Shown here: piece after piece, positions 4,864 through 61,680 of the stretch | Layout: every line of letters begins with the position of its first letter | Numbering within the stretch: the first letter of the stretch is position 1 | Source: Gemmatimonadaceae bacterium | Lineage (GTDB): Bacteria > Gemmatimonadota > Gemmatimonadetes > Gemmatimonadales > Gemmatimonadaceae | Reading direction: 5' to 3' | DNA length: 64,000 nt | Assembly (NCBI GenBank): GCA_052387735.1 | Contig: JBQTIW010000035.1 | Coordinates: forward strand, 24,626-88,625 | Notes under the pieces: generated by a model | Told to the model about the DNA's origin: nothing | What the model saw: the letters and a program-made list of their open reading frames with translations, nothing else | The model's database searches: none | Position numbers and translations under genes: made by a program

Positions 4864-4941
4864 GAGACGGGAGACAAAGACCGGAGAGCGTGAGCCGCAC
4901 TCCGCAGCAGATCTCCACTCCTACCTCCCGTCTCCCGTCTC
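4864..4941. repeat. G-rich/C-rich inverted repeat between convergent genes (likely bidirectional terminator; member of the heptad repeat family)
   Basis: GAGACGGGAGAC (4864-4875) is the exact reverse complement of GTCTCCCGTCTC (4930-4941). Arms show 7-nt periodicity (CTCCCGT CTCCCGT). Confidence 0.5.
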
Positions 4942-5384
4942 TAGAACGGCAGCAGTGGCCGGTCCCATGGGATGAAGCCCAGAATCGACGCCAGTGCGAT
5001 TCCCCACCAGATCGTGGCCGTTTGAAATCGGCCGGAATCACTCTTCGCCTTCCGGACGCGCGAGAGCCCGATGTGCGTGAGCGCTACGGAGATCAGCATC
5101 ATCACGGGGTGCTCCACCACGATTTTTCGCATCGCCGGGTCCGACATCGCCGCGCCCATGTCCGCCATCCCCTGGCGGGTCAGGGGACTGACCGCGTAGA
5201 GCAGTACCCCAAGCACGAATTGCAGCGAGATCGTGGCCGCGAACGCCTTGCCGGCCTTCAGATCGGCGTCGGTCCACTGGGCTCGCTGCATCCAGCCGCG
5301 CCAGGCATGCCAGAACGCCCAGAGTCCGGCGAGCACGACGACCCACCTAACGAGATTGTGCGTGATAAGGATGGCGGAATACAT
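4941..5384 (-). CDS. hypothetical integral membrane protein (about 4 TM helices)
   Basis: ATG at 5384 (MYSAILITHNLVRWVVVLAGLWAFW...). The upstream part of the 241-aa track ORF is Arg/Gly-rich shadow sequence. Hydrophobic segments run throughout. Confidence 0.5.
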   Translation of the reverse strand: MYSAILITHNLVRWVVVLAGLWAFWHAWRGWMQRAQWTDADLKAGKAFAATISLQFVLGVLLYAVSPLTRQGMADMGAAMSDPAMRKIVVEHPVMMLISVALTHIGLSRVRKAKSDSGRFQTATIWWGIALASILGFIPWDRPLLPF

Positions 5385-5557
5385 GTGTGAGACGGGACGG
5401 GTGACGGGAGTTGACGTCGCGAATGCGGGTCGGTTGGCCTCGACGGTCCAAGCTACGGCCGAAGACCAGAGGGCTCCAGTCGTCATGTCACGCCCTTGGT
5501 GGGGATGTGCCCCTGGCGTACATTCGCGCGTCGCTGCCCGACCCTCACAACCTCGCC

Positions 5558-8167
5558 ATGCGCCGTCTCGTCCTTCCAGCCCTGCTCGCGGTCTTCGCCG
5601 GTTCTGCCGCAGCGCAGCACCCATACTCGGAGGCCGGCAGCACCTATGACCCGCGCGTGCCCACACCCCGGTCGGTCCTCGGTTACGACCTCGGCCAGCG
5701 CTTCACCACACACCGAGCCATGCTTCGCTACGTCGAGCGCGTCGCTTCCGCGTCACGGCGCGTGAAGGTGGACACGGTTGCTCGGTCGTTCGAAGGGCGT
5801 GAGATGTTGCTCATCACCGTCTCGTCGGAGGCGAACATGGCGCGCCTCGCCGACCTGCAGGTCGACGCCCGTCGCGTCGCCGACCCGCGGACCGGATCCA
5901 CGGCCGAAGTGGAGGCGGCCGTTAGGCGTAGCCCGTCGATCGTCTGGCTGGCGCACTCGGTGCACGGCGGCGAGGCGTCAGGCGTCGAAGCGGGGATCGC
6001 GCTCCTGTATCAGCTGGCCGCCGGAACCGACGCCGAGACACGCCTGGCGCTCGACAGCACGGTTGTCCTGATCGACCCCATGCAGAACCCGGATGGTCGG
6101 GAGCGTCACACCCACGACGTCGAACGCCTGTGGAGTTTCCGGTCGCTGCCCACCGAGCCCGGCGCGTTGAACAACGCCGGGTCATGGCCCGGACCACGCA
6201 CGAGCCACTACTCGTTCGATCTCAATCGCGACTGGTTCATCCTGTCGCATCCGGAATCGCAGGGACGTGTCGCGTCGTTTCTCAAATGGATGCCACACGT
6301 TGCGGTCGACCTGCATGAGCAGGGGTCGAGCGCGACCTTCTATTTCGCGCCACCCCGGGAGCCCGACAACCGCAACAATCCGAAGCATCTCTTCAAGTGG
6401 TTCGACATCTTTGCCGCGGCACACGGCGCGGCGTTCGATGCGCACGGCTGGTCGTACTTTCGTCGCGAAGGCTACGACTCCTTCTATCCGGGATACGGCG
6501 AAGGCTGGCCGATGCTCACCGGCTCGATCGGCATGCTGTTCGAGTCCGCCTCCTCGTCGGGCGGGGCGATCCGCCGCAACGACGGCACGCTACGCACGCT
6601 CAAGCAGGCCGCCTGGGAGCACTACACGGCGGAGTGGACCACCGTGCGCACATCCGCGCGGCGACGCGCTGAGCTCGTCAGCGACTACGCGAAGTCGCGT
6701 CGTGACGCCATCAGTATCCATGCCGCCGGACCCATGCGCAGCGTCGTCTTCGAGCGCGACGGCCAGGGCCGCGCCGACACCCTCGCGCTGCGATTGAAGG
6801 CCAACGGCATCGACGTGATGCGCCTGACGAGTGACGCGGACCTGCGCGACGCGACGTTGTTCGGTGAGAAGACGGCGGCACCGTCGACACGAGTGCGGGC
6901 CGGCGCGTACGTCGTGGACCTCGCGCAACCGCAGGGACACCTCGCCAAGGCGCTGCTCGAGCCCGACGCCGAGCTCGATTCCGCATTCATCAAGCTGGAA
7001 TTGGAAATGCGACGCACGGGTCAGCCTGACCGGTTCTACGATATCACGGCGTGGTCGCTGCCCTTCGCCTATCGCGTGAGGGCCTGGCATACCAGGACCC
7101 TGCCCCCCTCGCTGTCGGCGATGGGTGAGCTCCCCCGCGATGCCATGTCGCGTGCGACTCGCGCGCGCTACGGATATGCCTTCGAGCCCGGCACGGAAGC
7201 GTCCAACCGGCTGCTGGCAGCGCTGCTCGAGGACTCCGTGAGAGTCTGGCACGCACCGCGTCCGTTCACGTCCGGTGGCAAGCGGTTTACGAAGGGCGCC
7301 TTTCTTGTGCGCGTAGCGTTCAACGACTCGTCGGTGCACGACGTGGTAGCCGAGCAGGCGACGCTGGCCGGCGCCGCCGTCTACGCGATCGCGTCTGCCG
7401 GGGTGGAAGCAGGTACGGATCTCGGTTCCAACTCGGTGCGCCCGATTCGCGTGCCCAAAGTCGCACTCCTCAGTGGTACGCCGGTGAGCGGCAACTCCTG
7501 GGGATTCACGTGGTATGCGATGGACCAGCGCCTGGGTTATCCCACGACCCTGGTGGATGCGAGCTTCCTCACCGCTGGCCTCGACGGGTTCAATGTGCTG
7601 ATCGTGCCGTCCGTCCCGGGTGCCGCCCTGGACCGCACGTTAGGTGACGCCGGCCGGACGCGTGTGGGTGACTGGGTGCGCAATGGTGGCGTGCTCATCA
7701 CCATCGACGCCGCCACCGCCTGGCTGGCGCAGGAGAGCACGCGCCTCGCGCGCGTCCGCGTTCGCCGGGACACGACTCGCGCCGATAGTGCGGGGGGAGC
7801 GCCACTGCAGACCGACCTCCCCGGCGTGATCGCGCGGGCCACGATCGACACGCTCTCGCCCCTGCTCGCCGGAGTTGCCGAGCTCGAGATCCCCGTGTTC
7901 GCGAACTCCGATCGTGTGCTCACCGTTCCGAAGGACCTGACCGCCGGTGAAGCGGTGATCCGGTTCGCGCCGGAGGGTCGTGTACGGCTCGCTGGCTACT
8001 TCTGGCCGGAGATGCCGGCGCGCATCGCCCTGTCGCCGTGGCTATGGACCGAGCGCGTCGGCAGGGGACGGGTGATCGCGTTTGCGCACGACGTCAACTT
8101 CCGCGACCTGTTCCGTGGGCTGCTGCCGATCTTTGGTAACGCCGTGCTGCTCGGCGGGACCTTCTAA
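5558..8167 (+). CDS. secreted M14-family metallocarboxypeptidase-like protein (large, multidomain)
   Basis: Start at MRRLVLPALLAVFAGSAAAQ (signal peptide). HSVHGGEASG contains the HxxE zinc-ligand motif of M14. 869 aa. Confidence 0.75.
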   Translation: MRRLVLPALLAVFAGSAAAQHPYSEAGSTYDPRVPTPRSVLGYDLGQRFTTHRAMLRYVERVASASRRVKVDTVARSFEGREMLLITVSSEANMARLADLQVDARRVADPRTGSTAEVEAAVRRSPSIVWLAHSVHGGEASGVEAGIALLYQLAAGTDAETRLALDSTVVLIDPMQNPDGRERHTHDVERLWSFRSLPTEPGALNNAGSWPGPRTSHYSFDLNRDWFILSHPESQGRVASFLKWMPHVAVDLHEQGSSATFYFAPPREPDNRNNPKHLFKWFDIFAAAHGAAFDAHGWSYFRREGYDSFYPGYGEGWPMLTGSIGMLFESASSSGGAIRRNDGTLRTLKQAAWEHYTAEWTTVRTSARRRAELVSDYAKSRRDAISIHAAGPMRSVVFERDGQGRADTLALRLKANGIDVMRLTSDADLRDATLFGEKTAAPSTRVRAGAYVVDLAQPQGHLAKALLEPDAELDSAFIKLELEMRRTGQPDRFYDITAWSLPFAYRVRAWHTRTLPPSLSAMGELPRDAMSRATRARYGYAFEPGTEASNRLLAALLEDSVRVWHAPRPFTSGGKRFTKGAFLVRVAFNDSSVHDVVAEQATLAGAAVYAIASAGVEAGTDLGSNSVRPIRVPKVALLSGTPVSGNSWGFTWYAMDQRLGYPTTLVDASFLTAGLDGFNVLIVPSVPGAALDRTLGDAGRTRVGDWVRNGGVLITIDAATAWLAQESTRLARVRVRRDTTRADSAGGAPLQTDLPGVIARATIDTLSPLLAGVAELEIPVFANSDRVLTVPKDLTAGEAVIRFAPEGRVRLAGYFWPEMPARIALSPWLWTERVGRGRVIAFAHDVNFRDLFRGLLPIFGNAVLLGGTF

Positions 8168-8334
8168 CCCTCGGCCGCCGGCGCGGGTTCGGACCCGGTC
8201 AGGGGCTCGCCATCACCTGACGGCTGGCCTTCGACGTTGCGGCGTTGCTTCTCGGCGAGCTTGGCATCCTTTCTCGCTTTGCGCTCGAGTTCTTTCCTGC
8301 GCTTCTCAAAGTCGTAGTTTGGCTTTCTGGCCAC
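8164..8334 (-). CDS. small Lys/Arg-rich hypothetical protein (56 aa), absent from the ORF track
   Basis: GTG at 8334 preceded by GGAG. Translation VARKPNYDFEKRRKELERKARKDAKLAEKQRRNVEGQPSGDGEPLTGSEPAPAAEG*. Its stop overlaps the stop of the convergent M14 gene by 4 nt. Confidence 0.35.
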   Translation of the reverse strand: MARKPNYDFEKRRKELERKARKDAKLAEKQRRNVEGQPSGDGEPLTGSEPAPAAEG

Positions 8335-8476
8335 AATCGAGGCTCCACTCCGCTCCCGCGGAAAAGGGACTGTTCCGGTCGCTCGGGGTCACCAGGCGGT
8401 GGAGCACCGAATTGCCGTACCTGAAGCGTAGTGGGTATTGCCGCCTCGTGGGGGGATCTGAGGCAGGATTGCACGA

Positions 8477-8516
8477 GAAAAGGCGGGGCGGCGCTCGGCC
8501 GTCCCCGCCTTTCTCC
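8477..8516 (-). terminator. intrinsic terminator downstream of the 8527-9168 gene
   Basis: AAAGGCGGGG ... CCCCGCCTTT is a perfect 10-bp stem. On the minus strand it is followed by TTTTCTCGTG. It starts 11 nt after the stop codon. Confidence 0.65.
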
Positions 8517-8526
8517 CCAGGGGCGA

Positions 8527-9168
8527 CTACATCCCATTCGCGAACTTTGCGGGAAACTGTTTGGCGATCGCGTCCGCCAGCGGATCGGCGATGTTCTGCA
8601 TGTGCATCGCCGCCGTGCGAAGCGCCCCGAAGCTCGCCTTCGCGTCCATCGTTGCCTGAGCATCGATCACAGCCTTGAGCGTGAGGACGTGGTCCTTCAC
8701 CAGTGCGGCCACAGCATCCTTTGGCAGGTTGGGGTTTGCCGACGCGAGGAAGGCGCCGAAGTCCTGTGTGTACTGCACGAGATCGCCGACCGCTGTGTCG
8801 CTCTTGGCCCTGTTCTTCGTGGCCAGGCCCACTGTGTAGTCCACCACGAAGCCGATGTGCTTGCGCCACAGCGCCAGGAAGGCCTGCTCGGCGCCGGTGC
8901 CATAGACCGAACCGATCGCTTTGGACACGTCGACCGAGTTCATGTCGAGGGCGCCGGCCGCTGCCTCGAACTCCGCGTTACGACCGCCGAGCGCGGCGCC
9001 GGTGGCGTTGGCGGCGAGGAAGGCGTGCTCCTGCAGCAGTGTGCGCAGTGTGGCGCGCAGTGTGGACGACGCGCCGCCATGCGACATGTCCCCGTGTTGG
9101 GCCTGGCCGGTGATGGGTGAAAGAACAAGGGCGGCACTGACGCCCGCGATGCTCAGATTGCGGAACAT
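8527..9168 (-). CDS. secreted helical hypothetical protein with an N-terminal His/Met motif
   Basis: 213 aa. Signal peptide MFRNLSIAGVSAALVLSPITGQAQ, then HGDMSHGG. Ala/Leu-rich helical repeats. 13 nt downstream of the cupredoxin gene. Confidence 0.6.
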   Translation of the reverse strand: MFRNLSIAGVSAALVLSPITGQAQHGDMSHGGASSTLRATLRTLLQEHAFLAANATGAALGGRNAEFEAAAGALDMNSVDVSKAIGSVYGTGAEQAFLALWRKHIGFVVDYTVGLATKNRAKSDTAVGDLVQYTQDFGAFLASANPNLPKDAVAALVKDHVLTLKAVIDAQATMDAKASFGALRTAAMHMQNIADPLADAIAKQFPAKFANGM

Positions 9169-9181
9169 TTGGACTGATCTC

Positions 9182-9520
9182 CTAACGAGTTGAGGATACG
9201 ATGACCGTGCCCCGCATGAACTGGTGCCGGTCGCAGAAGTAGGTGTGCGTGCCCGCCCGGTCGAACCGTTTCGTCGCCGACCTGCCCGCGTCCCTCAGCA
9301 CGTGGTTCCACGCCGCTGTCCTGGCCTGGGGCGTGCCGCCGGTGACGGTATGCTCGACCTGGTCACGGTTCACCCAGGTGACCGCGGTACCGACCGCGAC
9401 ACGAGTGGTGTCTGGCGAGAACTGGAAGGTCTTCAGTTCTACGGTGACCGCTCGGTCGGAAAACGACGGCAAGGTCTGGATGCCAGCGGCAGCGGCGATG
9501 GCAAGGATCAGGGAGCGCAT
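9182..9520 (-). CDS. cupredoxin (plastocyanin/amicyanin-like type-1 copper protein)
   Basis: Signal peptide MRSLILAIAAAAG. Cu-ligand pattern ..VEHTV.. and YFCDRHQFMRG (C-x2-H-x2-M). An alternative GTG start at 9559 is possible. Confidence 0.7.
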   Translation of the reverse strand: MRSLILAIAAAAGIQTLPSFSDRAVTVELKTFQFSPDTTRVAVGTAVTWVNRDQVEHTVTGGTPQARTAAWNHVLRDAGRSATKRFDRAGTHTYFCDRHQFMRGTVIVSSTR

Positions 9521-9670
9521 AACGAGCGAGTTGAGGCGTGTCCACGGACGGGCGAACACACCCTGATTACGCCGCCGGAGACTGTCCGGATTGCCGCTGC
9601 GAGGTTCTCGGGGACTGGTGGATCGTCGCGCCGATGGTGATTGTCATCGCGCCCTGTGTGGAGAACGGCG

Positions 9671-10522: not shown

Positions 10523-10526
10523 GCGT

Positions 10527-12227: not shown

Positions 12228-12288
12228 ACCGATCTCCTCCGCTTCATCAAGAACGCTGCAACACACGGTACACCTACTCCGACTCCCC

Positions 12289-18810: not shown

Positions 18811-18960
18811 CGGGGAGCGGACGGCGGCCAGCGGGTAGAAGGGGGCTGGTCTCGCACACGCGCGGCCGGCCTTCTTCGTCTGTACCCTCTGGACCCGCCG
18901 ATTCGCGTGCCCGTTTCTCCGTTTCCGCGGTTTACCCGTCTCCCGCTCCCCGTTTGCCCC
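18811..18960. repeat. pair of inverted G-rich/C-rich heptad-repeat elements
   Basis: CGGGGAGCGG (18811-18820) is the reverse complement of CCGCTCCCCG (about 18943-18952). The C-rich arm has four C3-4 runs at 18935-18960 and abuts the next start codon. Confidence 0.45.
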
Positions 18961-18962
18961 TC

Positions 18963-19877
18963 ATGAGGCGCCGCATCCTCGCCGTCTTCGCGATCGTCAC
19001 CCTGCCTGCAAGCTGCACGGCCTGGCTGCTGCGCGATCCGGTGCCGTATTTCGAGTCGCGGCGTGATACGGCCTTCCGTTCGAGCGTCCTGGCGCAGGAC
19101 TCCGCGGCCGATCACGTCAACGAGCGCGTGCAGCTCGACGCGATCAATGGGCTGCGAGTACAGATGATCCTCCGTCGACCCCGGGCGGAAAGCGGTGTTG
19201 TGAGGCGCCCGCTCTTCATCGTTCTGGGTGGCTATGAAACGGGTGATCGGGCGGCGACGCTCATCCCGCATACGCACGGCAACATCATTGCAGCGCTCGC
19301 CTATCCCTACGACGGTGACCTGGGCGTGAAGGGGTTCGCGGTGCTACCTGCCGTGCCCAAACTGCGGAAGGCTGTTCTTGACACGCCGCCGGCCATCATG
19401 CTGGCGATCGATTACCTGCTGTCCCGCGGCGATGTCGACTCCTCGCGCATTGAGCTCGTGGGTGCCAGCTTCGGCACACCCTTCAGTACGGTCGTCGGAG
19501 CTCTCGATCCTCGGGTGTCGCGCGTGTGGTCGGTGCATGGCGCGGCATGGCCGTATCGACAGATCGAGCACAATCTCCAGGCGCGGATAGACTGGGCGCC
19601 TGCTCGCCAGGTCGTGGCCGGGCTGGCGACGCTGTTTGCGTCGGGTTGGCGCCTGGATCCCGAAGACTGGGCACCCCGCATCTCGCCACGACCGTTCATC
19701 ATGATCAACGCCCGGGAGGACGAGCGGATGCCGCGGGACGCCGTCGATGCGCTGTACGCGAGCGCGCGTGCACCCAAGGACATGATCTGGCTCGACGGCC
19801 CACACCTGCAGAGCAACCGCAAAGCCGTCTTGTCCGGCCTTGTGGAGACCGTCCTGCGTCGCGCGGCTACTCCTTGA
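18963..19877 (+). CDS. alpha/beta hydrolase (dienelactone-hydrolase-like)
   Basis: MRRRILAVFAIVTLPASC N-terminus. GASFG nucleophile-elbow-like motif. About 304 aa. Confidence 0.6.
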   Translation: MRRRILAVFAIVTLPASCTAWLLRDPVPYFESRRDTAFRSSVLAQDSAADHVNERVQLDAINGLRVQMILRRPRAESGVVRRPLFIVLGGYETGDRAATLIPHTHGNIIAALAYPYDGDLGVKGFAVLPAVPKLRKAVLDTPPAIMLAIDYLLSRGDVDSSRIELVGASFGTPFSTVVGALDPRVSRVWSVHGAAWPYRQIEHNLQARIDWAPARQVVAGLATLFASGWRLDPEDWAPRISPRPFIMINAREDERMPRDAVDALYASARAPKDMIWLDGPHLQSNRKAVLSGLVETVLRRAATP

Positions 19878-20487
19878 GCGGCGTCGCGTCACTGTAGTAC
19901 TCCCCACGACGGCGCGCGACGACGTACAGGTGGTGCTGATTGTGATAGAGGGTGAACATCAACATTTCCCGCGCCGTGATCCTGCCCAACAAGGGATGCG
20001 GCAGCTGCACGCCGTCCACCTGATGGCGAGTCCAGAGCGTGACACGTCTGGCGAGCGCTTGCACCTCCTGTCGATGCATGGCAAGGATTTGCCGGCGGTA
20101 GTCGGACGGGTCTCCCGTGACCGGCTGCGGCGAGGGCGCGAAACGCCCAGCCTGTCCTCCCTCACGGAGCTTGGTGTGGTATTTCGCCACCAGGACCTCG
20201 TACGCCAACGACACGCGCTTGGCGTTGCCGAACATGAGGCGCAACACGAACGTGGGTGTTCGCATGGCGTGTGAGACGGCGCGCACGGACTTGGTGAGAT
20301 GGCGGACGTGATCCGCCGGTGACCACGACGGGCCGAGCGGAGCAACGAACTCTTCATCCGGCATCGAGTTCCAGTACAGTTCGCTTGTGCCGCACACGCG
20401 TCGCAGTCCGTTCGCAATCTCGTTGCGATGATACGCGCTGACGGGCGGTGGAACGAGGTGTGCCAGTGAGCTGTGCGTCGCGGGCAT
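19867..20487 (-). CDS. DinB-family (DinB_2) protein
   Basis: 206 aa. His-containing helices (HVRHLTKS ... FTLYHNQHHLYVV) typical of the DinB four-helix bundle. Overlaps the convergent hydrolase gene by 11 nt. Confidence 0.65.
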   Translation of the reverse strand: MPATHSSLAHLVPPPVSAYHRNEIANGLRRVCGTSELYWNSMPDEEFVAPLGPSWSPADHVRHLTKSVRAVSHAMRTPTFVLRLMFGNAKRVSLAYEVLVAKYHTKLREGGQAGRFAPSPQPVTGDPSDYRRQILAMHRQEVQALARRVTLWTRHQVDGVQLPHPLLGRITAREMLMFTLYHNQHHLYVVARRRGEYYSDATPLKE

Positions 20488-20595
20488 GTGCAGCGTTGTA
20501 CGTGGTTAGGCGCAACCCCGACCTCGTCGAGTTCACGCTCCGAACCTTGAGTGTGGTGTACCGCCGAATGGCGCGCAATGTTCACATGTGAATGA

Positions 20596-20671
20596 GTGGG
20601 GTCGTGAGTAGTGGGTAGAGGGCGACGACCCGTGATCTCTCCCCGCCACCCAGTACCCGCTACCCACTCTC
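20596..20671. repeat. G-rich/C-rich inverted heptad repeat with G-quadruplex-type run spacing
   Basis: GTGGGTAG (20611-20618) pairs with CTACCCAC (20660-20667). The + strand has CCCC..CCC..CCC..CCC at 20641-20665, with 4-nt spacers. Confidence 0.5.
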
Positions 20672-20971
20672 CTCGTCGTCCAGCGCCTGGAAATGCTGAC
20701 GCTGCCGCGCTCGTTGGCGCGGTGTTGAGTCATAGAGTCCGACGATTTGACGTGTCTGCAGCCGGATCAGCCATCCGACGGTGTCCACGAACTCGATCCA
20801 CCGCGGCCTGAGGCGCCGTCCTGTCACGTCCGCGATCCAGGCCCCCACTGCGCGTGAGACACGGAGCGACCCGAAGTCACCCCACACCACTACGAACTCC
20901 TGAGTTGAGCGCCACGACCGCGTGGGCTCTCGCTCAATTGTCTTCCACATCATCATCATCATCTGGATCAC
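20660..20971 (-). CDS. hypothetical protein (103 aa) beginning with five tandem ATG codons
   Basis: GTG-ATC-CAG-(ATG)5-TGG. No recognisable family. Moderately high GC3. Confidence 0.4.
   Translation of the reverse strand: MIQMMMMMWKTIEREPTRSWRSTQEFVVVWGDFGSLRVSRAVGAWIADVTGRRLRPRWIEFVDTVGWLIRLQTRQIVGLYDSTPRQRARQRQHFQALDDEESG
20948..20962. repeat. (CAT)5 / (ATG)5 trinucleotide repeat
   Basis: catcatcatcatcat read directly. Lies at the 5' end of the 20660-20971 ORF. Confidence 0.9.
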
Positions 20972-20999: not shown

Positions 21000-21033
21000 A
21001 CGCCCCGCCGCGACCATCGTCGCGGCGGGGCGT
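21000..21033 (-). terminator. very stable hairpin (15-bp perfect stem, 4-nt loop), terminator-like on the minus strand
   Basis: ACGCCCCGCCGCGAC-catc-GTCGCGGCGGGGCGT. On the minus strand it is followed by TGTGTTGTGG. Confidence 0.5.
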
Positions 21034-44287: not shown

Positions 44288-44629
44288 ATGCCCGTGCCTG
44301 ACGATGCGTTCACGCTGTATGACTTGCGGGTCGAAGTGGTGGCGACCGAACGACCAATGGTCTGCAACCACCAGCCGGGAGACTGGTTCGAGCTCTCAGG
44401 AGAAGACCTGCGATTCCCCGACGGTCAGACGTTCCCGCTGTACCCGCTCGCCGCGCTGCTCCCGATCCTCCCCGCCAAGCAGCGCATGACGCATCCCGCG
44501 GATTGGATGACGACCGACACTGACATCGCGTGTCCCGATCCGAACTGCGGCGGACGATTTCGCATCACCCGCGGGCGGGCGCGCACGTTCCGGCATGACG
44601 ACGTGACGGCGGTGCCGATGAGTGGGTAG
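44288..44629 (+). CDS. TIGR04076-family small Cys-containing protein
   Basis: MPVPDDAFTLYDLRVEVVATERPMVCNHQPGDWFELSGEDLRFPDGQTFPLYPLAALLPILPAKQR...CPDPNCGG. Confidence 0.55.
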   Translation: MPVPDDAFTLYDLRVEVVATERPMVCNHQPGDWFELSGEDLRFPDGQTFPLYPLAALLPILPAKQRMTHPADWMTTDTDIACPDPNCGGRFRITRGRARTFRHDDVTAVPMSG

Positions 44630-44723
44630 TGGGTCGTCGGTAGCGGGTGGAATGGCGGTGGTGTGGGTTGCTGTCAACGCCGGCAGACACGTTGGTTCCG
44701 GCTGCGTACCACTCCGCTACGCC
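44620..44723. repeat. G-rich heptad repeat (GAGTGGG TAGTGGG TCGTCGG TAGCGGG) with an imperfect C-rich partner
   Basis: GTAGCGG (about 44640-44646) pairs with CCGCTAC within 44709-44723. Related to the 20596-20671 element (GAGTGGGTAGCGGGT core). Confidence 0.4.
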
Positions 44724-50225: not shown

Positions 50226-50254
50226 GGGGAGCGAAGGGTGGGTGGCGGGTGGGG
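50226..50254 (+). other. canonical G-quadruplex-forming motif
   Basis: GGGGAGCGAAGGGTGGGTGGCGGGTGGGG: five G3-4 runs with loops of 7 nt or fewer. Shares the GGGGAGCG core with the intergenic repeat family. Confidence 0.5.
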
Positions 50255-50496: not shown

Positions 50497-50554
50497 GGAG
50501 AGGTACGGTTTAGCTGCCTCCCTCGTATCACTCCCTCCTTCCGTCTCCCTCCCT

Positions 50555-52529: not shown

Positions 52530-52536
52530 GGGCTCG

Positions 52537-55233: not shown

Positions 55234-55263
55234 AACACCCAGGAGTCACGCGCGGAGGGAAGG

Positions 55264-57921
55264 ATGTTGCGACTAGGGTTCGCGGTAGCGATTGCACTTG
55301 GTGGATTGCAGGTGCTGCGCGCACAGTCGTTCCCCGCCCGCGACGCCGGCTGGCAATCCGATATCGATTTCTTGCTGCAGCAACTCGGGAAGCAGCACCT
55401 GGTGCTGAGTCGACGACCGCTCCCCGCACCGCTGGTGCAGGCAGCAGCGCGACTCAAGGACTCGGTGCGTGTGTTCAGCGACGAGCGCATGCTCATTGAA
55501 CTGCAGCGTCTCGCCGCTTTCGCCGGCGACGGGCACACCTACGTGCTTCCGATGGGCGCCGAGCGCGCGCAATCGACGGTGCTTCCATTGCGCTTCTATG
55601 CATTCTCCGATGGACTCCATGTGATCGATGCCCAGCCGGGCCACGAGCAATGGATCGGCAGCCGAGTTCTGCGTTTCGGCTCGCTCCCAGCCGAACACGC
55701 GATGCGCAAGGTGCGAGAACTCATCAGTCGCGACAACGCGATGGGTGTGCAATGGGTCGGTCCGTTCTTCCTCGGCTTCCGTGGAACGCTCGAGGCGTTG
55801 ACCGACGCGGTGGATCTCAGGAGTGCGGAGCTCACCTTGCACACACGTGAGGGGCGGACCACCACGACTCGGCTTCCGTTTGTTGCTCCACCTCGCATGC
55901 GCGGTATTCCCAAGCTGCCGGCACCACGACAATCATCTGCGCCGGCCGCACCACGCTGGTTAGGCAACGTCGACACACCCTACTGGTTCGACTCGCTCCA
56001 GAGCGGAACGATGTTCGTGCAGTTCAATCAGGTGATGGACGCTCCGGCCGAGCCGATCGAGCAGTTCGCCACACGGCTGGCGGCGGCCATTGCCTGGCAG
56101 CGTCCTCGTGTCGTGATCGTGGATGTGCGGCACAACAACGGAGGAAGCAAGGAACTGCTGCCCCCGCTCACGCGCGTGCTGCGGGAGTTCGACCAGAGTC
56201 GCCCCGACGCCCGGCTGTATGTACTGACGGGACGCAACACCTTCTCCGCAGCGCAGGTGTTCATCGCGCAATTGGCGCGTGACACGAAGGCCGTGTTCGC
56301 CGGAGAAGCGAGCAGCTCGCGTCCCAACTTTGTGGGGGAAGAGAATGCGGTGGTGCTGCCCTGGAGCGGTGCGATGGCAAGTGTCTCCAACCGCGAGCAC
56401 ATCAGCATCCCCGGCGATCGCCGGGAGCTCATCCCGCCATCGCTTCCCGTAGCGCTCCGCGCGGCCGACTACTTTGGCGGGCGCGACCCGGTGCTCGAGG
56501 CGGTGCTACGCGATTCCCGGAGCCGGAACCTGGCCCCGGAGCCGGACCTCGCGATCACCAACGTGACGGTGGTTGAGCCGGGGCCCGGCGCGCGATCGCT
56601 GACTGGTCAAACCATACTGATCCGCGGAGGGATGATCGAAACGGTGGGCCCCAGCCCCACGACGCCAGTGCCTCGCGGAATACGACGCGTCGATGCGCGC
56701 GGCAAGTATGCCATTCCTGGACTGTGGGACATGCACGTTCACTTCATGAACACTGGGGTGAGCGCGTTGCCGCTGCTGGTGGCTCACGGTGTCACGACAG
56801 TTCGAGAGATGGGAGGCTTCATCGACAGCACGCGCGCGTGGCAGGCGCGGATGCGCGCGGGTGCGCTGACTGGCCCGCGCATTCTCACGGCCGGCCCCAT
56901 TCTCGAGAGCCCGCGTTACTTGCAAGGTGTTCGCGATCGCAGTGTCCGCGACCCCCGACTGGCACAGCGGGTGCTGCCATATCGCATCTCCGTGGGGGGA
57001 GAGGACGACGCACGGCGCGCCATCGATTCGCTGGTGGCGCTCGGCGTCGACTTCGTGAAGGTTCGCACCACGGCATCTCCGCAGGCGTACTACGCGATCC
57101 TGCGGGAGGCGCGGCGCGCGCGATTGACGGTCACGGGGCACCAGCCGACCGCCGTGTCGTTAGGCGCAGCGCTGGACTCCGGACAGTCGGACATCTCGCA
57201 TGCCCTGTTCCCGATCCTCGCCCGCCTTCCCCCCGGAGCGCGTGACTCGATCTATCGCCGGTTCCTGGCGGCGCGGGCCTGGTATACGCCGACCCTCGTA
57301 GTGTCGCGGGCGGCGTCACTGCCGGGCGATTCGGCCGACCGGGCCATTTTTAGCGCGGAGGCTCGTCGCGGCGATCCGCGGCGAGCGTTTGCCTCGCCCT
57401 GGCTGCTGGAGTGGTGGCAGATGCAGGTCGATGAACGCAAGCTCGATACGGGCACAGCGCGGTGGGCCGAAGTGCGCGAAGGCTATCGCAGCAGCGTGGC
57501 CGATGTGCGACGGATGCAGGAACTCGGCGTGCCGATCCTGGCCGGCACCGACGCGGGATCAGTGCTGGTGTATCCCGGAATCAGTCTTCACGAAGAGCTG
57601 CAGCTGCTGGTCGAGGACGCCGGGTTGAGTCCTGCACAGGCTCTTTGGAGCGCGACCCTTGGCCCCGCGCAGTTCACCGGGAGGGCCGATTCACTCGGCC
57701 TGATCGCGGTGGGGAAAACCGCGGACCTCGTCCTGTTGGATGCGAATCCGATCGCCAACATCCGCAACACCCGTCGCATCGCCGCGGTGGTGAAAGGGGG
57801 CCACCTGCTGGATCGCCGGGCATTGGACGTCATGCTTCGCACGGTCCGTTCGGGAGAGGTACCGTCGTCTGGGTCTCGCGACGGTCCGACCGCGCCTACC
57901 GTCTCCCCAGCGCGCCAATAG
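55264..57921 (+). CDS. fusion of an S41-peptidase-like module and an amidohydrolase
   Basis: Signal peptide. S41-like blocks VIVDVRHNNGGS and VLTGRNTFSAAQVF. C-terminal amidohydrolase (ITNVTVVEP...AIPGLWDMHVHF...ADLVLLDANPI). Confidence 0.7.
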   Translation: MLRLGFAVAIALGGLQVLRAQSFPARDAGWQSDIDFLLQQLGKQHLVLSRRPLPAPLVQAAARLKDSVRVFSDERMLIELQRLAAFAGDGHTYVLPMGAERAQSTVLPLRFYAFSDGLHVIDAQPGHEQWIGSRVLRFGSLPAEHAMRKVRELISRDNAMGVQWVGPFFLGFRGTLEALTDAVDLRSAELTLHTREGRTTTTRLPFVAPPRMRGIPKLPAPRQSSAPAAPRWLGNVDTPYWFDSLQSGTMFVQFNQVMDAPAEPIEQFATRLAAAIAWQRPRVVIVDVRHNNGGSKELLPPLTRVLREFDQSRPDARLYVLTGRNTFSAAQVFIAQLARDTKAVFAGEASSSRPNFVGEENAVVLPWSGAMASVSNREHISIPGDRRELIPPSLPVALRAADYFGGRDPVLEAVLRDSRSRNLAPEPDLAITNVTVVEPGPGARSLTGQTILIRGGMIETVGPSPTTPVPRGIRRVDARGKYAIPGLWDMHVHFMNTGVSALPLLVAHGVTTVREMGGFIDSTRAWQARMRAGALTGPRILTAGPILESPRYLQGVRDRSVRDPRLAQRVLPYRISVGGEDDARRAIDSLVALGVDFVKVRTTASPQAYYAILREARRARLTVTGHQPTAVSLGAALDSGQSDISHALFPILARLPPGARDSIYRRFLAARAWYTPTLVVSRAASLPGDSADRAIFSAEARRGDPRRAFASPWLLEWWQMQVDERKLDTGTARWAEVREGYRSSVADVRRMQELGVPILAGTDAGSVLVYPGISLHEELQLLVEDAGLSPAQALWSATLGPAQFTGRADSLGLIAVGKTADLVLLDANPIANIRNTRRIAAVVKGGHLLDRRALDVMLRTVRSGEVPSSGSRDGPTAPTVSPARQ

Positions 57922-57931
57922 CTTGAAGGAC

Positions 57932-58405
57932 ATGCGCGTGCGCCTTCTTCCCCCGGTCCTTCTCGCCACGAGTGGATGCATCCAGGAACCGAGCGTTCCA
58001 AAGGTCGGACTCGATCCGGTCTCGATCAGTCTGACGGTGTCCACACAGACGTTGCGGCCGGGCATCCCAGACACGATACGGGTCACGGTACAAAACAACC
58101 TCGAGCAACCCGTCCGGATCTCATTCGACAATCTGTGCCAGGTCTTCGTGACGATTCGCAACCAGGCAGGTGACGTCGTGACGCCGCGTAACGGTCGACC
58201 ACAATGCCTCCCCGTTCAATCACAGCTGACCCTGGTTTCCCTGGGCAGGCAAGTCTTCACGACGGTTTGGACCGGTGGATTTGACTTCGCCCCACCTGAC
58301 ACCCAGGCAAAGGTGCCTCCGGGCGCGTACTTCGTGTCCGCGGAGCTTCGTGCCCTTGGCTACTCGACCCTCGCGCCTGCTTTCAAGGTCGACGTCATCC
58401 CCTAG
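57932..58405 (+). CDS. lipoprotein resembling the BsuPI intracellular-proteinase-inhibitor fold
   Basis: Lipobox LLATSGC. Pattern TIRVTVQNNLEQPVRISFDNLCQVFVTIRNQAGDVVTP...LTLVSLGRQVFTTVWTG resembles BsuPI-type domains. The call is tentative. Confidence 0.45.
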   Translation: MRVRLLPPVLLATSGCIQEPSVPKVGLDPVSISLTVSTQTLRPGIPDTIRVTVQNNLEQPVRISFDNLCQVFVTIRNQAGDVVTPRNGRPQCLPVQSQLTLVSLGRQVFTTVWTGGFDFAPPDTQAKVPPGAYFVSAELRALGYSTLAPAFKVDVIP

Positions 58406-58457
58406 GTCCACTTGTGGACTCGGGAGTCGTCACGCAACACAACACGCAACGCCTCGC

Positions 58458-59720
58458 ATGCCCATGACGCGTTTCTTCGTTATCGCTTTCCTGTCTCTCA
58501 TTGCCCTTCCCGCGGCTGCGCAGGACCCTCACGTAGCCAAGGCCAGGCGCGTGCTTCGCAGCACGCCGCTGATCGATGGGCACAACGACTTGCCGTGGGT
58601 CATCAGGAACTTCCGCAGCGCGCCTCTGAGCGTGGATGCCTATGATCTGACGAAGCGCACAGCCGGTCACACGGACATTGCGCGGCTCCGCACGGGAATG
58701 GTCGGTGGCCAGTTCTGGTCGGTCTACATTCCGGGTGACATCAGAGACTCGGGCTTTGCCAAGGTGCAACTGGAACAGATCGACATCGCGAAGCAGGTGT
58801 TCCGGAAGTACCCCAGCGTGTTTCAGGAAGCATTGACCGCTGCCGCCATGCGGCGGGCCTTTGCATCCGGCCGAATCGGTTCGGTGATGGGAATGGAAGG
58901 GGGGCATGCCATCGAGAATTCGTTAGGCGCCTTGCGTGGGTTCTATGACATGGGAGTTCGCTACCTGACGCTCACGCACAACGTCACGCTGGACTGGGCC
59001 GACGCGGGCAATGGTGAACAGAAGCACGGCGGACTCACGAAGTTCGGTGAGGAAGTGGTCCGTGAGATGAACCGCCTGGGCATGCTTGTGGACCTGGCGC
59101 ACACCTCGCCAGCGACCATGAGCGACGCGCTGAATGTGTCCGAGGCGCCGGTTATCTGGTCGCATGCCTGCGCTCGCGCGATCACCGACGTGCCGCGCAA
59201 TGTGCCGGATTCGATCATCGCCCGCCTGCCGAAGAACGGTGGTGTGCTCATGGTGACGTTCGTGCCCGGCTTCCTCTCGCAGAAGGTTGCTGACTACGCC
59301 ATCGTCGCACGCGCCAAGCGCATTCAGTTCCGTACGGAGTTCGGCAGTGACACCACGGCGGTGAATCGCGCGCTCGCCGGTTGGCGCCAGACCAATCCTC
59401 CGCCCCGTGCCACGATCCAGGATGTTGCAGACCACATCGATCACGTTCGGAAGGTGGCTGGCGTCGATCATGTGGGGATCGGATCCGACTTTGACGGCGT
59501 CGACGAGTTGCCCGAGGGACTCGAGGACGTATCCAAATACCCGGCGCTCCTTGCCGAACTCTCGCGGCGTGGCTGGAGTGAGCGCGACCTGCGCAAGGTC
59601 GCCGGCGAGAACGTGCTGCGGGCACTCGCAGAGGCGGAGCGAGTCGCCGCTCGATTGCAGAGAACGCGACGCCCGTCGACGAAGACGATCGCGGAGCTGG
59701 ACGGCCGGACCCGGATGTAG
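58458..59720 (+). CDS. membrane dipeptidase (peptidase family M19)
   Basis: Signal peptide. PLIDGHNDLPW, GGQFWSVY, MGMEGGHAIE..YLTLTHN, VDLAHTS, GIGSDFDG motifs. Confidence 0.85.
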   Translation: MPMTRFFVIAFLSLIALPAAAQDPHVAKARRVLRSTPLIDGHNDLPWVIRNFRSAPLSVDAYDLTKRTAGHTDIARLRTGMVGGQFWSVYIPGDIRDSGFAKVQLEQIDIAKQVFRKYPSVFQEALTAAAMRRAFASGRIGSVMGMEGGHAIENSLGALRGFYDMGVRYLTLTHNVTLDWADAGNGEQKHGGLTKFGEEVVREMNRLGMLVDLAHTSPATMSDALNVSEAPVIWSHACARAITDVPRNVPDSIIARLPKNGGVLMVTFVPGFLSQKVADYAIVARAKRIQFRTEFGSDTTAVNRALAGWRQTNPPPRATIQDVADHIDHVRKVAGVDHVGIGSDFDGVDELPEGLEDVSKYPALLAELSRRGWSERDLRKVAGENVLRALAEAERVAARLQRTRRPSTKTIAELDGRTRM

Positions 59721-59937
59721 CGCTTTCCCGACTCGGAGTTCCCCCAGCATACACGGCGCGTTCGTACGGCGAGGTTGATGAGACGCGACAGACCAACTTT
59801 GGCGTGCATGAGAGTTGATTCTGCGCACCGCGTGTTCTAGCGGTTGAGTTCGTCAGCAGCGCCGCCACTTGCCCGGATGGCCACGGGACAGCAGCGTTGC
59901 TGAGTCCGTCCTGCGCTCCAGGGGGAGGTGCCCCCGA

Positions 59938-61533
59938 ATGTCCCGCCTGCCGTTCACCGTTAGCGCGCTCTGTTTCGCGCTGCTCGTTCCTCCGCTTCAC
60001 GCGCAGTCGCCGCGTCTCGGCCGCATTGTCTTTCCGACGTCGGGCCGGGCCGAGGCGCAGCCGCTGTTCATCCGCGGCGTACTCTATCTGCACAGCTTCG
60101 AGTACGATTCGGCGGCAAGCGCCTTTCGGGAAGCGCAGCGGCTTGACCCGAACTATGCCATGGCGTTCTGGGGCGAGGCCATGACGTACACACATCCGGT
60201 GTGGTATCAGCAGGACCTCTCCGCGGCGCGCGCTGCCCTGCAACGTTTCGCGTCGACGGTCGCGGAGCGCCGCTCGAAGGCGCCCACCGCGCGCGAGAAG
60301 CGGTGGTTCGACGCGATCGAAGTCCTGTATGGTGATGGGGCCAAGGAGGAGCGCGACACGCTGTACGCCAGGGAGATGGAGCGATTCGCCCGTGATTACC
60401 CGGGCGACCACGAGGTGCAGACGCTCTACGCGTTGTCCCTGCTGGGCTTGTCGAGCCGCGGTCGGGATGCCCCGACCTACATGCGGGCAGCAGCAATCGC
60501 CGAGGAAGTGTATCGGGAGAATCCCGAGCATCCTGGCGCACTCCACATCCTCATTCACTCGTACGACGATCCGGTGCACGCCCCCCTCGGGATGCGCGCC
60601 GCGCGCGCGTACTCGGTCGTGGCACCCAGCGCCGCCCATGCGCAGCACATGACCTCGCACATCTTCGTGTCGATGGGGATGTGGGATGACGTGGAGCGGG
60701 CCAACATCGCCGCCTGGGAGGCGTCCAACAGGCGGAACGGCCATTACACGCACTGGCTGTCATACGGCTACCTGCAGAAGGGCCGGGTCAAGGACGCGCG
60801 CACCTTCGTGGCGGCGGTCATGAGCGACGCGGCGAGCGACCCGACGCCGTACAAGCTCGGCTACATGAACACGATGCTGGCCGGTTACCTGATGGATGCG
60901 GAGGAGTGGAACAGCCCCTGGGCGCGGTTCGCCGCGGATTCGGCGAAGCGAGCGGGAGGTCCCGGCGCCTTTCATCCCGCGGCCGTTGCGCTCGATTTTG
61001 CCGCGGGTGTTGCGGCACTCAAACGAGGCGACGCAGCAACGGCACGGCGTCTGCGCGGTTCACTCGCCGCTCGCGTGGGCGCCGCGCGCGCACCAGCCGG
61101 AGATGGCTATGTCCCCGGACGCGCCAGCGCTGAAATCATGGGCCAGATGCTGGACGCCCTCACGTTGGCCAGCACGGGGCAGATGGATGCCGCGATCAGC
61201 GTAACACGTGACGCGGCGACGCGTGAGGCATCGCTGCCGTTCGAGTTCGGCCCGCCGGAAACCATCAAACCACCCTACGAGCTGCTCGGCGAACTGCTGC
61301 TCACCGCGGAACGCGCGGCCGATGCGAGGGCCGCATTTGAGCAGGCCCTCTCACGCACACCCAACCGCTCGCGATCTGTCCTCGGTCTCGCGCGCGCCTA
61401 CGCAGCCCTGGGGAACATGCCTGCCGGTGCACAGCACTACGCTCGCTTCCTCGCCAACTGCGCTGGGGCCGAGGAACGCAGTCAGGACATGAAGGAAGCG
61501 GAGGCATTCTTGTCCAAGGCGGAGCGACGATAG
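59938..61533 (+). CDS. secreted TPR-repeat protein
   Basis: GGGGGAGG SD. Signal peptide MSRLPFTVSALCFALLVPPLHAQ. Helical repeat content (e.g. AFREAQRLDPNYAMAFWGEA). Confidence 0.6.
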   Translation: MSRLPFTVSALCFALLVPPLHAQSPRLGRIVFPTSGRAEAQPLFIRGVLYLHSFEYDSAASAFREAQRLDPNYAMAFWGEAMTYTHPVWYQQDLSAARAALQRFASTVAERRSKAPTAREKRWFDAIEVLYGDGAKEERDTLYAREMERFARDYPGDHEVQTLYALSLLGLSSRGRDAPTYMRAAAIAEEVYRENPEHPGALHILIHSYDDPVHAPLGMRAARAYSVVAPSAAHAQHMTSHIFVSMGMWDDVERANIAAWEASNRRNGHYTHWLSYGYLQKGRVKDARTFVAAVMSDAASDPTPYKLGYMNTMLAGYLMDAEEWNSPWARFAADSAKRAGGPGAFHPAAVALDFAAGVAALKRGDAATARRLRGSLAARVGAARAPAGDGYVPGRASAEIMGQMLDALTLASTGQMDAAISVTRDAATREASLPFEFGPPETIKPPYELLGELLLTAERAADARAAFEQALSRTPNRSRSVLGLARAYAALGNMPAGAQHYARFLANCAGAEERSQDMKEAEAFLSKAERR

Positions 61534-61539
61534 AGCAGA

Positions 61540-61680
61540 CGGAGCAGCGAGCAGGGAGAAGGGAGCGGGGAGCGGGCAGCGGGCAGCGGAGAGGAGAGCG
61601 GGGAGCGAACGGTCGATCGGGAGTGGGAGCTGGCCCAGAACTCTGCGTTCCGCTCTCCGCTCCCTGCTCTCCGCTCCCCC
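61540..61680. repeat. long imperfect G-rich/C-rich inverted heptad repeat between convergent genes (likely bidirectional terminator; G4-type run spacing)
   Basis: GGG runs at 61554, 61561, 61567, 61574 and 61581 with 3-4-nt spacers ((GGGNAGC)n). The C-rich partner CGCTCTCCGCTCCCTGCTCTCCGCTCCCCCC lies at about 61650-61680. Confidence 0.55.

What the first reader, a model, noticed from the sequence alone, without database searches (positions are those of the whole stretch)
4864..61680. Family of G-rich/C-rich, 7-nt-periodic inverted repeats at gene ends, with G-quadruplex-type spacing
Intergenic spacers at 2711-2760, 4864-4941, 5392-5413, 18811-18960, 20596-20671, 44620-44723, 50226-50254 and 61540-61680 share related G-rich words. 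Examples are CGGGGAGCGGG, GAGACGGGAGAC and GAGTGGGTAGCGGGT.

The words are arranged with a 7-nt period, for example GGGGAGC GGGCAGC GGGCAGC, GAGTGGG TAGTGGG TAGCGGG, and CTCCCGT CTCCCGT. Most have a C-rich partner 40-110 nt away that can base-pair with them:
- a 12-bp perfect pairing at 4864/4930
- a 10-bp pairing at 18811/18943
- an 8-bp pairing at 20611/20660

Several copies satisfy the G3+N1-7 x4 quadruplex rule: 61554-61583 and 50226-50254 on the + strand, and 20641-20665 and 18935-18960 on the - strand.

They sit mostly between convergent genes or directly after stop codons, and some include the stop codon itself. That placement fits REP/BIME-like terminator or mRNA-stabilising elements.

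Two C-rich arms abut start codons that lack a Shine-Dalgarno sequence (ATG 18963 and ATG 50555).
Basis: seen in the sequence. Interest (0 to 1): 0.6.

Follow-up and report, generated by a model that had tools for sequence, protein, structure and literature searches.

The report
Hairpins with tandem-heptamer arms between genes
The G-rich and C-rich words between these genes are the two arms of long hairpins built from tandem 7- or 8-base repeats, a repeat class already described in Xanthomonas and cyanobacteria that here fills a soil bacterium's gene gaps, is gained and lost quickly, and shares its design with small cassettes carrying a four-helix-bundle gene.

Summary
This 5.5-Mb, 66% GC genome is probably Gemmatimonadaceae. 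It holds about 360 tandem arrays of period 7 or 8 with 88 different units; GGGAGAC is the commonest. It also holds about 150-220 hairpins whose 5' arm is a G-rich array and whose 3' arm is its reverse complement.

- **Polarity:** 153 of 414 arrays have a complementary partner downstream, 1 upstream.
- **Anatomy:** arms have a median of 21 nt. Loops have a median of 60 nt and are unrelated between loci. The G arm starts a median 4 nt after a stop codon.
- **Not REP/RAYT, MITE or canonical terminators:** there is no shared core, no target duplication and no U tract.
- **G-quadruplex rule:** only a minority meet it, and there is no preference for four tracts.
- **Closest published class:** the quadruplex-forming heptamer repeats of Xanthomonas and Nostoc (Rehm 2015) and cyanobacterial STRR.
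- **IVP link:** the genome's two PF05635 (23S-rRNA-IVS protein, Avd-like) genes sit inside the same kind of hairpin. So do 66 of 74 such genes in the order.
- **RNase III:** this enzyme excises rRNA IVSs, but it was not found here or in 60 of 61 genomes of the order.

This scan has reported the same class and the PF05635 link on other genomes before.

The parts
4864..4941 (.). Hairpin element, unit GGGAGAC. G arm 4864-4875, 54-nt loop, C arm 4930-4941. It fills the spacer between convergent genes 4353-4859 (+) and 4941-5384 (-).
   Evidence: 12-bp perfect inverted repeat. RNA fold -33.8 kcal/mol, z -3.0. Gene calls.
18811..18957 (.). Hairpin element, unit about GGGGAGC. G arm 18811-18827 starts 1 nt after the TAG of the SusD-like gene. 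C arm 18936-18952 ends 10 nt before ATG 18963.
   Evidence: 17 nt, 82% inverted repeat (I12). Fold -81.8 kcal/mol, z -5.0. PQS on the - strand at 18935-18960.
20594..20669 (.). Hairpin element, unit GGGTAGT/GGGTAGA, beside the stop of the minus-strand ORF 20660-20971. The gene call to its left (19867-20487, -) leaves about 100 nt uncalled.
   Evidence: Fold -35.8 kcal/mol, z -2.4, with the closing stem GAGUGGG/CCCACUC. PQS on the - strand at 20641-20665.
61541..61691 (.). Hairpin element, unit GGAGCGG (9.9 copies). C array 61649-61678. It fills the 153-nt spacer between convergent genes 59938-61533 (+) and 61687-63006 (-).
   Evidence: TRF and inverted-repeat score 38. Fold -84 kcal/mol, z -3.6. 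The orthologous spacer in a close relative is only 16 nt and empty.
44620..44723 (.). G array AGTGGGT x4 (44621-44648) that includes the TGA stop of 44288-44629. Only a weak C-rich partner at about 44709-44723.
   Evidence: TRF. Fold not better than shuffles, z -0.9. The orthologous spacer in relative L169 is 35 nt without an array.
2726..2755 (+). Solo array GACAGGA x4.4 in the spacer between two minus-strand genes. It is G-rich on + at the left of the spacer, so C-rich in the leader of 2128-2703.
   Evidence: TRF score 39. No hairpin, z +0.4.
5385..5413 (+). Solo G-rich run (GACGGGA-type words) directly upstream of the minus-strand start at 5384, so a C-rich leader in that gene's sense.
   Evidence: Sequence. 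Below the TRF threshold.
50226..50254 (+). G-rich quadruplex-rule stretch in a long spacer. No convincing partner. Absent from the homologous spacer of L169.
   Evidence: PQS. Fold z -0.8. Comparison with L169 13206-13619.
50520..50554 (+). Conserved C-rich leader in front of ATG 50555. Not a hairpin arm.
   Evidence: Nearly the same leader and start in L169 13590-13621.

Best explanation
The spacers hold members of a fast-evolving class of intergenic hairpin elements. Each has a G-rich tandem array of 7- or 8-nt units, a locus-specific loop, and then the reverse-complement C-rich array.

**Shown**
- The architecture.
- The strict G-first polarity, whatever the orientation of the flanking genes.
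- The tight fit to stop codons.
- The lack of any shared core.
- Presence or absence differences between relatives.
- The same bracket around nearly every PF05635 (IVS-protein, Avd-like) gene in this bacterial order, including this genome's two copies. The arms of those two copies are the commonest 7-nt unit family and the largest single 8-nt unit family.

**Inferred**
- The gene-less hairpins and the PF05635 cassettes are one element system. They enter or arise in spacers by a process that writes the arms.
- Copy number then drifts by slippage.
- The two arms are kept complementary by arm-to-arm copying (template switching or gene conversion).
- When transcribed from either strand, the RNA folds into a stem of about 21 bp. 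No RNase III gene is detectable here, so the stem should persist in the transcript.
- There it most likely acts as a barrier to 3' exonucleases and an insulator between neighbouring genes, not as a canonical terminator.
- G-quadruplex potential is a side effect of GGG-containing units.
For: **Periodicity and abundance**
-.

**Polarity**
- 153 downstream partners against 1 upstream.
- Inverted repeats scoring 28 or more: 208 G-first against 9 C-first.
- The C-first cases are in-gene chance matches or ordinary terminators. None has tandem arms.
- Solo and paired arrays both lie G-left and C-right in tandem, convergent and divergent spacers.

**Anatomy**
- Arm median 21 nt, loop median 60 nt, stop-to-arm distance 4 nt.

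**Turnover**
- Loops are unrelated between loci.
- (GGGAGAC)x3 occurs 50 times here and 0 times in six same-genus genomes. Those genomes instead carry 88-295 copies of a 9-nt family, against 33 here.
- Spacers that hold elements here are empty in relative L169: 16 nt and 35 nt, against 153 nt and 217 nt here.

**PF05635 cassettes**
- Both own copies are bracketed.
- 13 of 14 and 53 of 60 loci in the order are bracketed.
- 21 of 22 tandem-armed cassettes are G-first.
- The pth-IVP-ychF cassette is conserved in the genus, but its arms have switched from a 9-nt to a 7-nt unit. Each genome's two arms are still complementary.

**Published parallels**
- PMC4692102, read.
- PMC4990558, read.
Against: - Loops share nothing with the cassettes, and there are no PF05635 remnants in loops (2 hits genome-wide). 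Descent of the gene-less hairpins from cassettes is therefore not shown.
- There are 88 units but only two PF05635 genes.
- PF05635 similarity predicts arm unit only weakly (rho -0.18). Cassettes 50-60% identical already differ in unit.
- PF05635 copy number correlates only weakly with array count across 61 genomes (rho 0.26, p 0.04, genomes not independent).
- No target-site duplication, so the insertion mechanism is unknown.
- No RNA data: the one run found is DNA contigs. Transcription, 3' ends and stabilisation are untested.
- More than half of the arrays have no detectable partner.
Confidence: 0.55

Rival explanations
1. G-quadruplex regulatory repeats. The G-rich arms fold into G4 in DNA or RNA and act through that structure on transcription, termination or translation, as proposed for GGGNATC repeats in Xanthomonas and Nostoc.
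For: - PQS density is 394 per Mb in non-coding DNA against 56 per Mb in coding DNA.
- Non-coding DNA holds 237 PQS against 161 +/- 8 in shuffles.
- Four window sites meet the rule.
- Rehm et al. showed G4 formation by CD for related units.
Against: - There is no preference for four tracts: counts for 3, 4, 5 and 6 tracts are 190, 59, 21 and 5.
- Many abundant units have no GGG.
- Most arms have a complementary partner nearby that would compete as a duplex.
- Relatives use a 9-nt GYACGRGNN unit that is a poor G4 former.
Confidence: 0.12
2. Hairpin-dependent, U-tract-independent transcription terminators, bidirectional between convergent genes, under selection for a stem at each gene end.
For: - Arms start a median 4 nt after stops.
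- Convergent spacers are enriched: 24% of elements against 14% of all spacers.
- Few canonical terminators exist in the genome: 52 under strict criteria.
- The orthologous site in G005 holds a simple GC hairpin.
Against: - 63% of elements lie between co-directional genes and 12% between divergent genes.
- Loops have a median of 60 nt and there is no U tract.
- The orthologous convergent spacer in close relative L169 is 16 nt with no comparable hairpin.
- Selection for a stem does not explain tandem periodicity or G-first polarity.
Confidence: 0.15
3. Pure replication-slippage microsatellites arising in situ, with no element identity and no function. Inverted pairs are incidental.
For: - The distribution of tract number is monotonic and roughly geometric.
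- Copy number varies widely.
- Contigs often break in arrays.
Against: - Slippage does not produce a reverse-complement array 20-150 nt away: 153 downstream partners against 1 upstream.
- It does not produce a strict G-first order.
- It does not produce a preference for periods 7-9.
- It does not explain the constant bracket around PF05635 genes.
Confidence: 0.08
4. REP/BIME-type elements mobilised by a RAYT (Y1 transposase).
For: - Intergenic location, palindromic, abundant.
- One PF01797 gene is present.
Against: - No conserved repeat sequence or GTAG head, and the units are diverse.
- The Y1 gene sits at a contig end, resembles IS200 tnpA and is not flanked by arrays.
Confidence: 0.03

Closest known systems
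Quadruplex-forming heptamer repeats GGGNATC of Xanthomonas and Nostoc (Rehm et al. 2015, PMC4692102)
   Same: - Tandem G-rich heptamers, over-represented in non-coding DNA.
- Within 50 bp of the stop on the sense strand, or upstream of an ORF on the antisense strand.
- 70-75 convergent plus/minus pairs per Xanthomonas genome, able to form stem-loops.
- Repeat length differs between species.
- The units GGGATTC and GGGGATT also occur here.
   Different: - Here there is not one unit but 88, and 8-nt units are as common as 7-nt units. Same-genus relatives use 9-nt units.
- No preference for four units.
- Different phylum.
- The paper does not mention PF05635 cassettes, in the parts I read.
STRR (short tandemly repeated repetitive) heptamers of filamentous cyanobacteria, and TAACTGA repeats of Beggiatoaceae (MacGregor 2015, PMC4679880)
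   Same: Intergenic tandem heptamers, species-specific units, often close to start codons, function unknown.
   Different: Those are mostly direct arrays: 169 direct sets against 1 indirect set in the Beggiatoa genome. Here the inverted G-first/C-second pair is the characteristic form.
ORF-bearing 23S rRNA intervening sequences (Coxiella, Leptospira; Warrier et al. 2016, PMC4990558)
   Same: - Terminal inverted repeats forming a stem of about 28 bp.
- Tandem heptamers in the 5' arm, with copy number varying between strains.
- A PF05635/S23p ORF in the loop.
- This genome's two PF05635 genes have exactly this layout.
   Different: - Here the elements lie between protein-coding genes, not in rRNA, and most carry no ORF.
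- RNase III, which excises IVSs, was not found in this genome or in 60 of 61 genomes of the order.
REP/BIME elements of enterobacteria and pseudomonads
   Same: Abundant intergenic palindromes at gene ends. REPs stabilise upstream mRNA against 3' exonucleases (my own knowledge), which is the role I infer here.
   Different: REPs are conserved about-35-nt sequences linked to RAYT transposases. These elements have no conserved sequence and no RAYT link.

Membership tests
G-rich heptamer repeats of the Rehm 2015 type | Tandem G-rich units of 7 nt enriched in non-coding DNA | tested here: met
   Period 7 is 5-10 times enriched over neighbouring periods in non-coding DNA. There are 221 period-7 arrays.
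G-rich heptamer repeats of the Rehm 2015 type | G-rich on the sense strand just after stops and C-rich on the sense strand before starts, with convergent inverted pairs | tested here: met
   119 against 44 near stops and 104 against 53 near starts. Pairs.
G-rich heptamer repeats of the Rehm 2015 type | Preference for four units, matching the G4 requirement | tested here: not met
   Monotonic decline with no peak at four.
G-rich heptamer repeats of the Rehm 2015 type | G4 formation of the unit oligonucleotides | not testable with these tools
   Needs CD or G4-seq. Only the sequence rule was checked.
IVS-type PF05635 cassette | PF05635 ORF inside the hairpin | tested here: not met
   None of the window's elements carries an ORF; loops are 20-110 nt. 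Two cassettes elsewhere in the genome do.
IVS-type PF05635 cassette | Terminal inverted repeats with tandem heptamers forming a stem of 20 bp or more | tested here: met
   Arm median 21 nt. Folds. Published comparison in PMC4990558.
IVS-type PF05635 cassette | Excision by RNase III | tested here: not met
   No PF14622 or PF00636 hit, no tblastn hit and no PS00517 motif in the own genome. Found in 1 of 61 genomes of the order. Cleavage itself is untestable here.
IVS-type PF05635 cassette | Location inside a 23S rRNA gene | tested here: not met
   All the elements examined, including both cassettes, lie between or beside protein-coding genes, for example pth and ychF.
REP/BIME | Conserved about-35-nt palindromic consensus shared by all copies | tested here: not met
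   88 units. Loops are unrelated.
REP/BIME | Cognate RAYT gene flanked by the repeats | tested here: not met
   One Y1_Tnp gene, IS200-like, at a contig end. The readable flank has no arrays.
MITE | Target-site duplication and a conserved internal sequence | tested here: not met
   TSD counts equal shifted controls. No loop similarity.
Canonical intrinsic terminator | Short GC stem, loop of 3-8 nt, U tract | tested here: not met
   Loop median 60 nt. 5 or more T in 10 nt after the arm in 6% of cases.

The most novel reading that the evidence does not exclude
The heptamer-armed hairpins are non-autonomous members of an uncharacterised, phylum-spanning mobile system whose autonomous form is the PF05635 (Avd-like) cassette. 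The arms are written onto host 3' ends at insertion, for example by target-primed copying of the repeat-ended cassette RNA with an Avd-like cofactor. That would explain why the G-rich strand always runs 5'-to-3' towards the loop, why an orthologous cassette can change its arm unit and period while its two arms stay complementary, and why relatives differ so sharply. In this order the system works without RNase III.
Probability: 0.25. Interest if true: 0.8.

Novelty: new member of a known kind. Interest (0 to 1): 0.5.

Why it matters
Heptamer repeats (STRR, GGGNATC, TAACTGA) have been known since 1990 without a mechanism or a function. This genome adds four things.

- **Inverted G-first pair:** this form, not the G-quadruplex rule, is the constant feature.
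- **Fast turnover:** the period can be 7, 8 or 9 nt, and the unit is replaced within a genus even at an orthologous cassette.
- **A candidate partner protein:** nearly every PF05635 gene in the order sits in such a hairpin.
- **No detectable RNase III:** the only enzyme known to process the rRNA version is missing in this order, so either another nuclease acts or the stems persist.

For annotation, these elements explain long structured spacers, C-terminal extensions of genes (pth here) and contig breaks in soil metagenome bins.

Tried and rejected
rejected, because arms and loops share no sequence between loci. I used direct genome-wide scans instead.
- **Loop-against-loop BLAST:** only 10 short hits.
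- **Target-site duplications:** none above controls.
- **RAYT link:** one IS200-like gene, unlinked.
- **U tract after arms:** absent.
- **Peak at four G tracts:** absent.
- **Leader selection as the cause of G-first polarity:** rejected as sole cause, because polarity is just as strict in convergent spacers, 42 against 4.
- **General G-rich 3' UTR composition:** absent once arrays are masked.
- **PF05635-to-unit specificity:** only a weak signal.
- **Reverse transcriptases:** two group II intron RTs and one partial RT, none next to a cassette.
- **Near-identical strains:** no identical proteins on record.
- **Sequencing runs:** only one DNA run kept as contigs, and no RNA run was listed in this kind-any search.
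- **Rfam:** no family in the window.
- **Taxon names:** names from the protein search are mixed MAG labels. Gemmatimonadaceae is the best-supported label.
Full report
**1. Setting**

The window is contig C35:24626-88625 of a 5.52-Mb draft genome with 361 contigs, 65.8% GC and 98% completeness.
- Best protein matches are to Gemmatimonadota and Acidobacteriota bins.
- TrpE is 82% identical to a "Gemmatimonadaceae bacterium" protein on a 424-kb contig. I treat the organism as probably Gemmatimonadaceae.
- No gene caller was available, so I wrote a codon-usage ORF caller. It gave 4595 genes and 88% coding. Stops are exact; starts are approximate.

**2.

Sites in the window:
- The 12-bp perfect pairing at 4864/4930 is there.
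- The imperfect pairings at 18811/18936 and 61541/61650 are there.
- The four quadruplex-rule matches are there.
- RNA folds of four sites beat dinucleotide shuffles, with z from -2.4 to -5.0. The sites at 44620, 50226 and 2711 do not. These three are solo or weakly paired arrays.

Genome-wide:
- Three GGG tracts spaced 7 nt apart occur at 0.26 per kb of non-coding DNA, and at 0.18 per kb for 8-nt spacing. Other spacings give 0.03-0.05 per kb.
- At TRF score 50 or more there are 122 arrays of period 7 and 102 of period 8, against at most 10 for each of periods 3-6, 9, 10 and 11.
- At score 40 or more there are 221 period-7 arrays with 41 units and 137 period-8 arrays with 47 units.
- GGGAGAC and its one-mismatch variants make up 105 of the 221 period-7 arrays.

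**3. Anatomy**

Pairing and polarity:
- I oriented 414 arrays G-rich and looked for reverse-complement matches (score 24 or more) within 300 nt. 153 have one downstream and 1 has one upstream. Direct-repeat controls are equally rare on both sides.
- An independent inverted-repeat scan gives 208 G-first against 9 C-first pairs at score 28 or more.
- The C-first pairs are in-gene chance matches or short ordinary terminators. None has tandem arms.

Dimensions, after merging overlaps into 150 G-first elements (219 at a looser cut):
- Arm median 21 nt, loop median 60 nt, span median 111 nt.
- The G arm begins a median 4 nt after a stop codon. The C arm ends a median 20 nt before a start.

Context:
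- 63% lie between co-directional genes, 24% between convergent genes (background 14%) and 12% between divergent genes.
- Solo and paired arrays alike lie G-left and C-right in all three contexts. The polarity therefore belongs to the element, not to the direction of transcription.

Other properties:
- Loops of different elements share no sequence.
- There is no target-site duplication.
- No U tract follows the 3' arm.
- TAG is over-represented as the adjacent stop: 63 of 118, against 34% genome-wide.

**4. The G-quadruplex reading**

- Quadruplex-rule motifs are 7 times denser in non-coding than in coding DNA, and 1.5 times more frequent than in shuffled spacers.
- This follows from GGGNNNN arrays. 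Loop lengths of 4 and 5 nt dominate.
- The number of consecutive G tracts falls steadily with no excess at four.
- Many abundant units have no GGG.
- Same-genus relatives use GYACGRGNN.
- I conclude that the G4 rule is met by a minority of arms and is not what defines the family.

**5. What is known**

- Rehm et al. (PMC4692102) described GGGAATC heptamers in Xanthomonas. They reported the same placement: within 50 bp after the stop on the sense strand, or upstream of ORFs on the antisense strand. They found 70-75 convergent plus/minus pairs per genome and showed G4 formation by CD.
- STRR repeats and the TAACTGA repeats (PMC4679880) are related direct arrays.
- The class is therefore published. 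This genome is a new, unusually diverse member.
- This scan has reported the same class on other genomes several times, including a Gemmatimonadales genome, and tied it to PF05635 genes. I treated that as a lead and tested it here.

**6. The PF05635 link holds in this genome and order**

Own genome. It has two PF05635 genes:
- One lies between pth and ychF. It is bracketed by (GGGAGAC)3, which encodes the last residues of Pth, and by GTCTCCC-type arrays that end at the ychF start.
- The other is bracketed by (GGCGCACT)3 and (GCGCCTGT)9.
- These arms belong to the commonest 7-nt unit family and the largest single 8-nt unit family of the genome.

Across 61 genomes of the order:
- 53 carry PF05635, with 0-13 copies each.
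- 13 of 14 and then 53 of 60 inspected loci are bracketed by inverted repeats spanning about 470-690 nt.
- 22 of the 53 have clearly tandem arms, and 21 of those 22 are G-first.
- Different cassettes in one genome have different units.

Published parallel:
- The Coxiella 23S rRNA IVS has the same design: a 28-bp terminal stem, GACAGAT repeats whose number varies between strains, an S23p ORF and an RNase III cut (PMC4990558).

**7. Turnover**

Unit replacement within the genus:
- (GGGAGAC)x3 occurs 50 times here and never in six same-genus genomes.
- Those genomes carry 88-295 matches to a 9-nt family, often as plus/minus pairs, against 33 here.

The pth-PF05635-ychF cassette:
- It is present in five of six same-genus genomes.
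- There its arms are the 9-nt unit. Here they are GGGAGAC. In every genome the two arms match each other.
- This genome's PF05635 protein is also the outlier: 42-47% identical to the others, which are 54-94% identical among themselves. Pth is 71-78% identical. Either the cassette was replaced at the same site, or gene and arms changed together.
- A genome of another genus (G009) has an empty 70-nt pth-ychF spacer.
- G001 has lost the gene but keeps G arrays, which shows one way solo arrays can arise.

A closer relative (L169, TrpE 87% identical):
- It is syntenic over 21 kb.
- Its spacers corresponding to the 61541 and 44620 elements are 16 nt and 35 nt and empty.
- It has octamer arrays before trpE, where this window has none.

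Across the order:
- Counts of GGG-N4 x4 range from 1 to 1280 per genome.
- These tallies include G013, which is unpublished. Nothing here rests on it alone.

**8. RNase III**

The rRNA version of this design is cut by RNase III, so I looked for the enzyme.
- Neither PF14622 nor PF00636 finds it in this genome.
- tblastn with a bona fide RNase III from G050 gives nothing better than E = 3, and the PS00517 signature is absent from all six frames.
- In the order, 1 of 61 genomes has a hit, on a 1.5-kb contig. 8 of 14 control genomes have a hit.
- The stems are therefore unlikely to be processed the way IVSs are.

**9. Translation context**

- Only 31% of starts have an SD-like 4-mer.
- Leaders are C-rich and G-poor even after arrays are masked. 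Regions after stops are not G-rich once arrays are masked.
- C arms in front of starts thus fit the genome's normal leader composition.
- Polarity is equally strict in convergent spacers, so leader selection cannot be its only cause.

**10. Conclusion**

- The finding is a real, already described kind of repeat in a new lineage, not a REP/BIME family.
- My best reading is one element system with the PF05635 cassettes (inferred). The arms grow by slippage and are kept complementary by copying between arms.
- The RNA stems persist and most likely protect 3' ends and insulate neighbouring genes (inferred, untested).
- How the arms are written, why they are 7-9 nt, and why the G arm comes first remain unexplained.

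Noticed in passing
whole genome G000 and 60 relatives: No RNase III gene was found in this genome by Pfam models, tblastn or the signature motif. It was found in only 1 of 61 genomes of the order, on a 1.5-kb contig, while 8 of 14 control genomes ring.
   Followed up: partly
G000:C145:16843-17447 (L076 808-1407): The last ten residues of peptidyl-tRNA hydrolase (GRETGDGRPE) are encoded by the (GGGAGAC)3 arm of the PF05635 cassette. The array has been absorbed into the reading frame.
   Followed up: partly
window 55264-57921 against L169 17181-17269: The 885-aa S41-like/amidohydrolase gene of the window has no counterpart in the otherwise syntenic relative contig L169. There the FtsX-type permease is followed directly by the 157-aa gene.
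   Followed up: no
L169 9698-9794: The relative has C-rich octamer arrays (CCGTCGCT x5.6, CGTCCGTA x5.8) in the spacer before trpE. The window has none there.
   Followed up: no
genome-wide, next to elements: TAG is the stop codon beside 63 of 118 elements, against 34% of all genes. This is about 4 standard deviations above expectation by my own arithmetic. Units containing TAG, or arrays beginning with G, may create or select it.
   Followed up: no
window 21000-21033: A 15-bp perfect GC hairpin with a 4-nt loop. It is an ordinary terminator-like hairpin unrelated to the heptamer family, and one of the few C-first inverted repeats.
   Followed up: no
G000:C293:43-399: A single IS200-like Y1 transposase gene at a contig end. 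Downstream of it lies a GAAGCACGG-type G-first hairpin resembling the 9-nt family of the same-genus relatives.
   Followed up: partly
G000:C145 PF05635 protein (L076 1432-1827, minus strand): Where the five same-genus orthologues read NIVEG or NIAEG, this copy reads NVAVG. It may be decaying or diverging in function.
   Followed up: no
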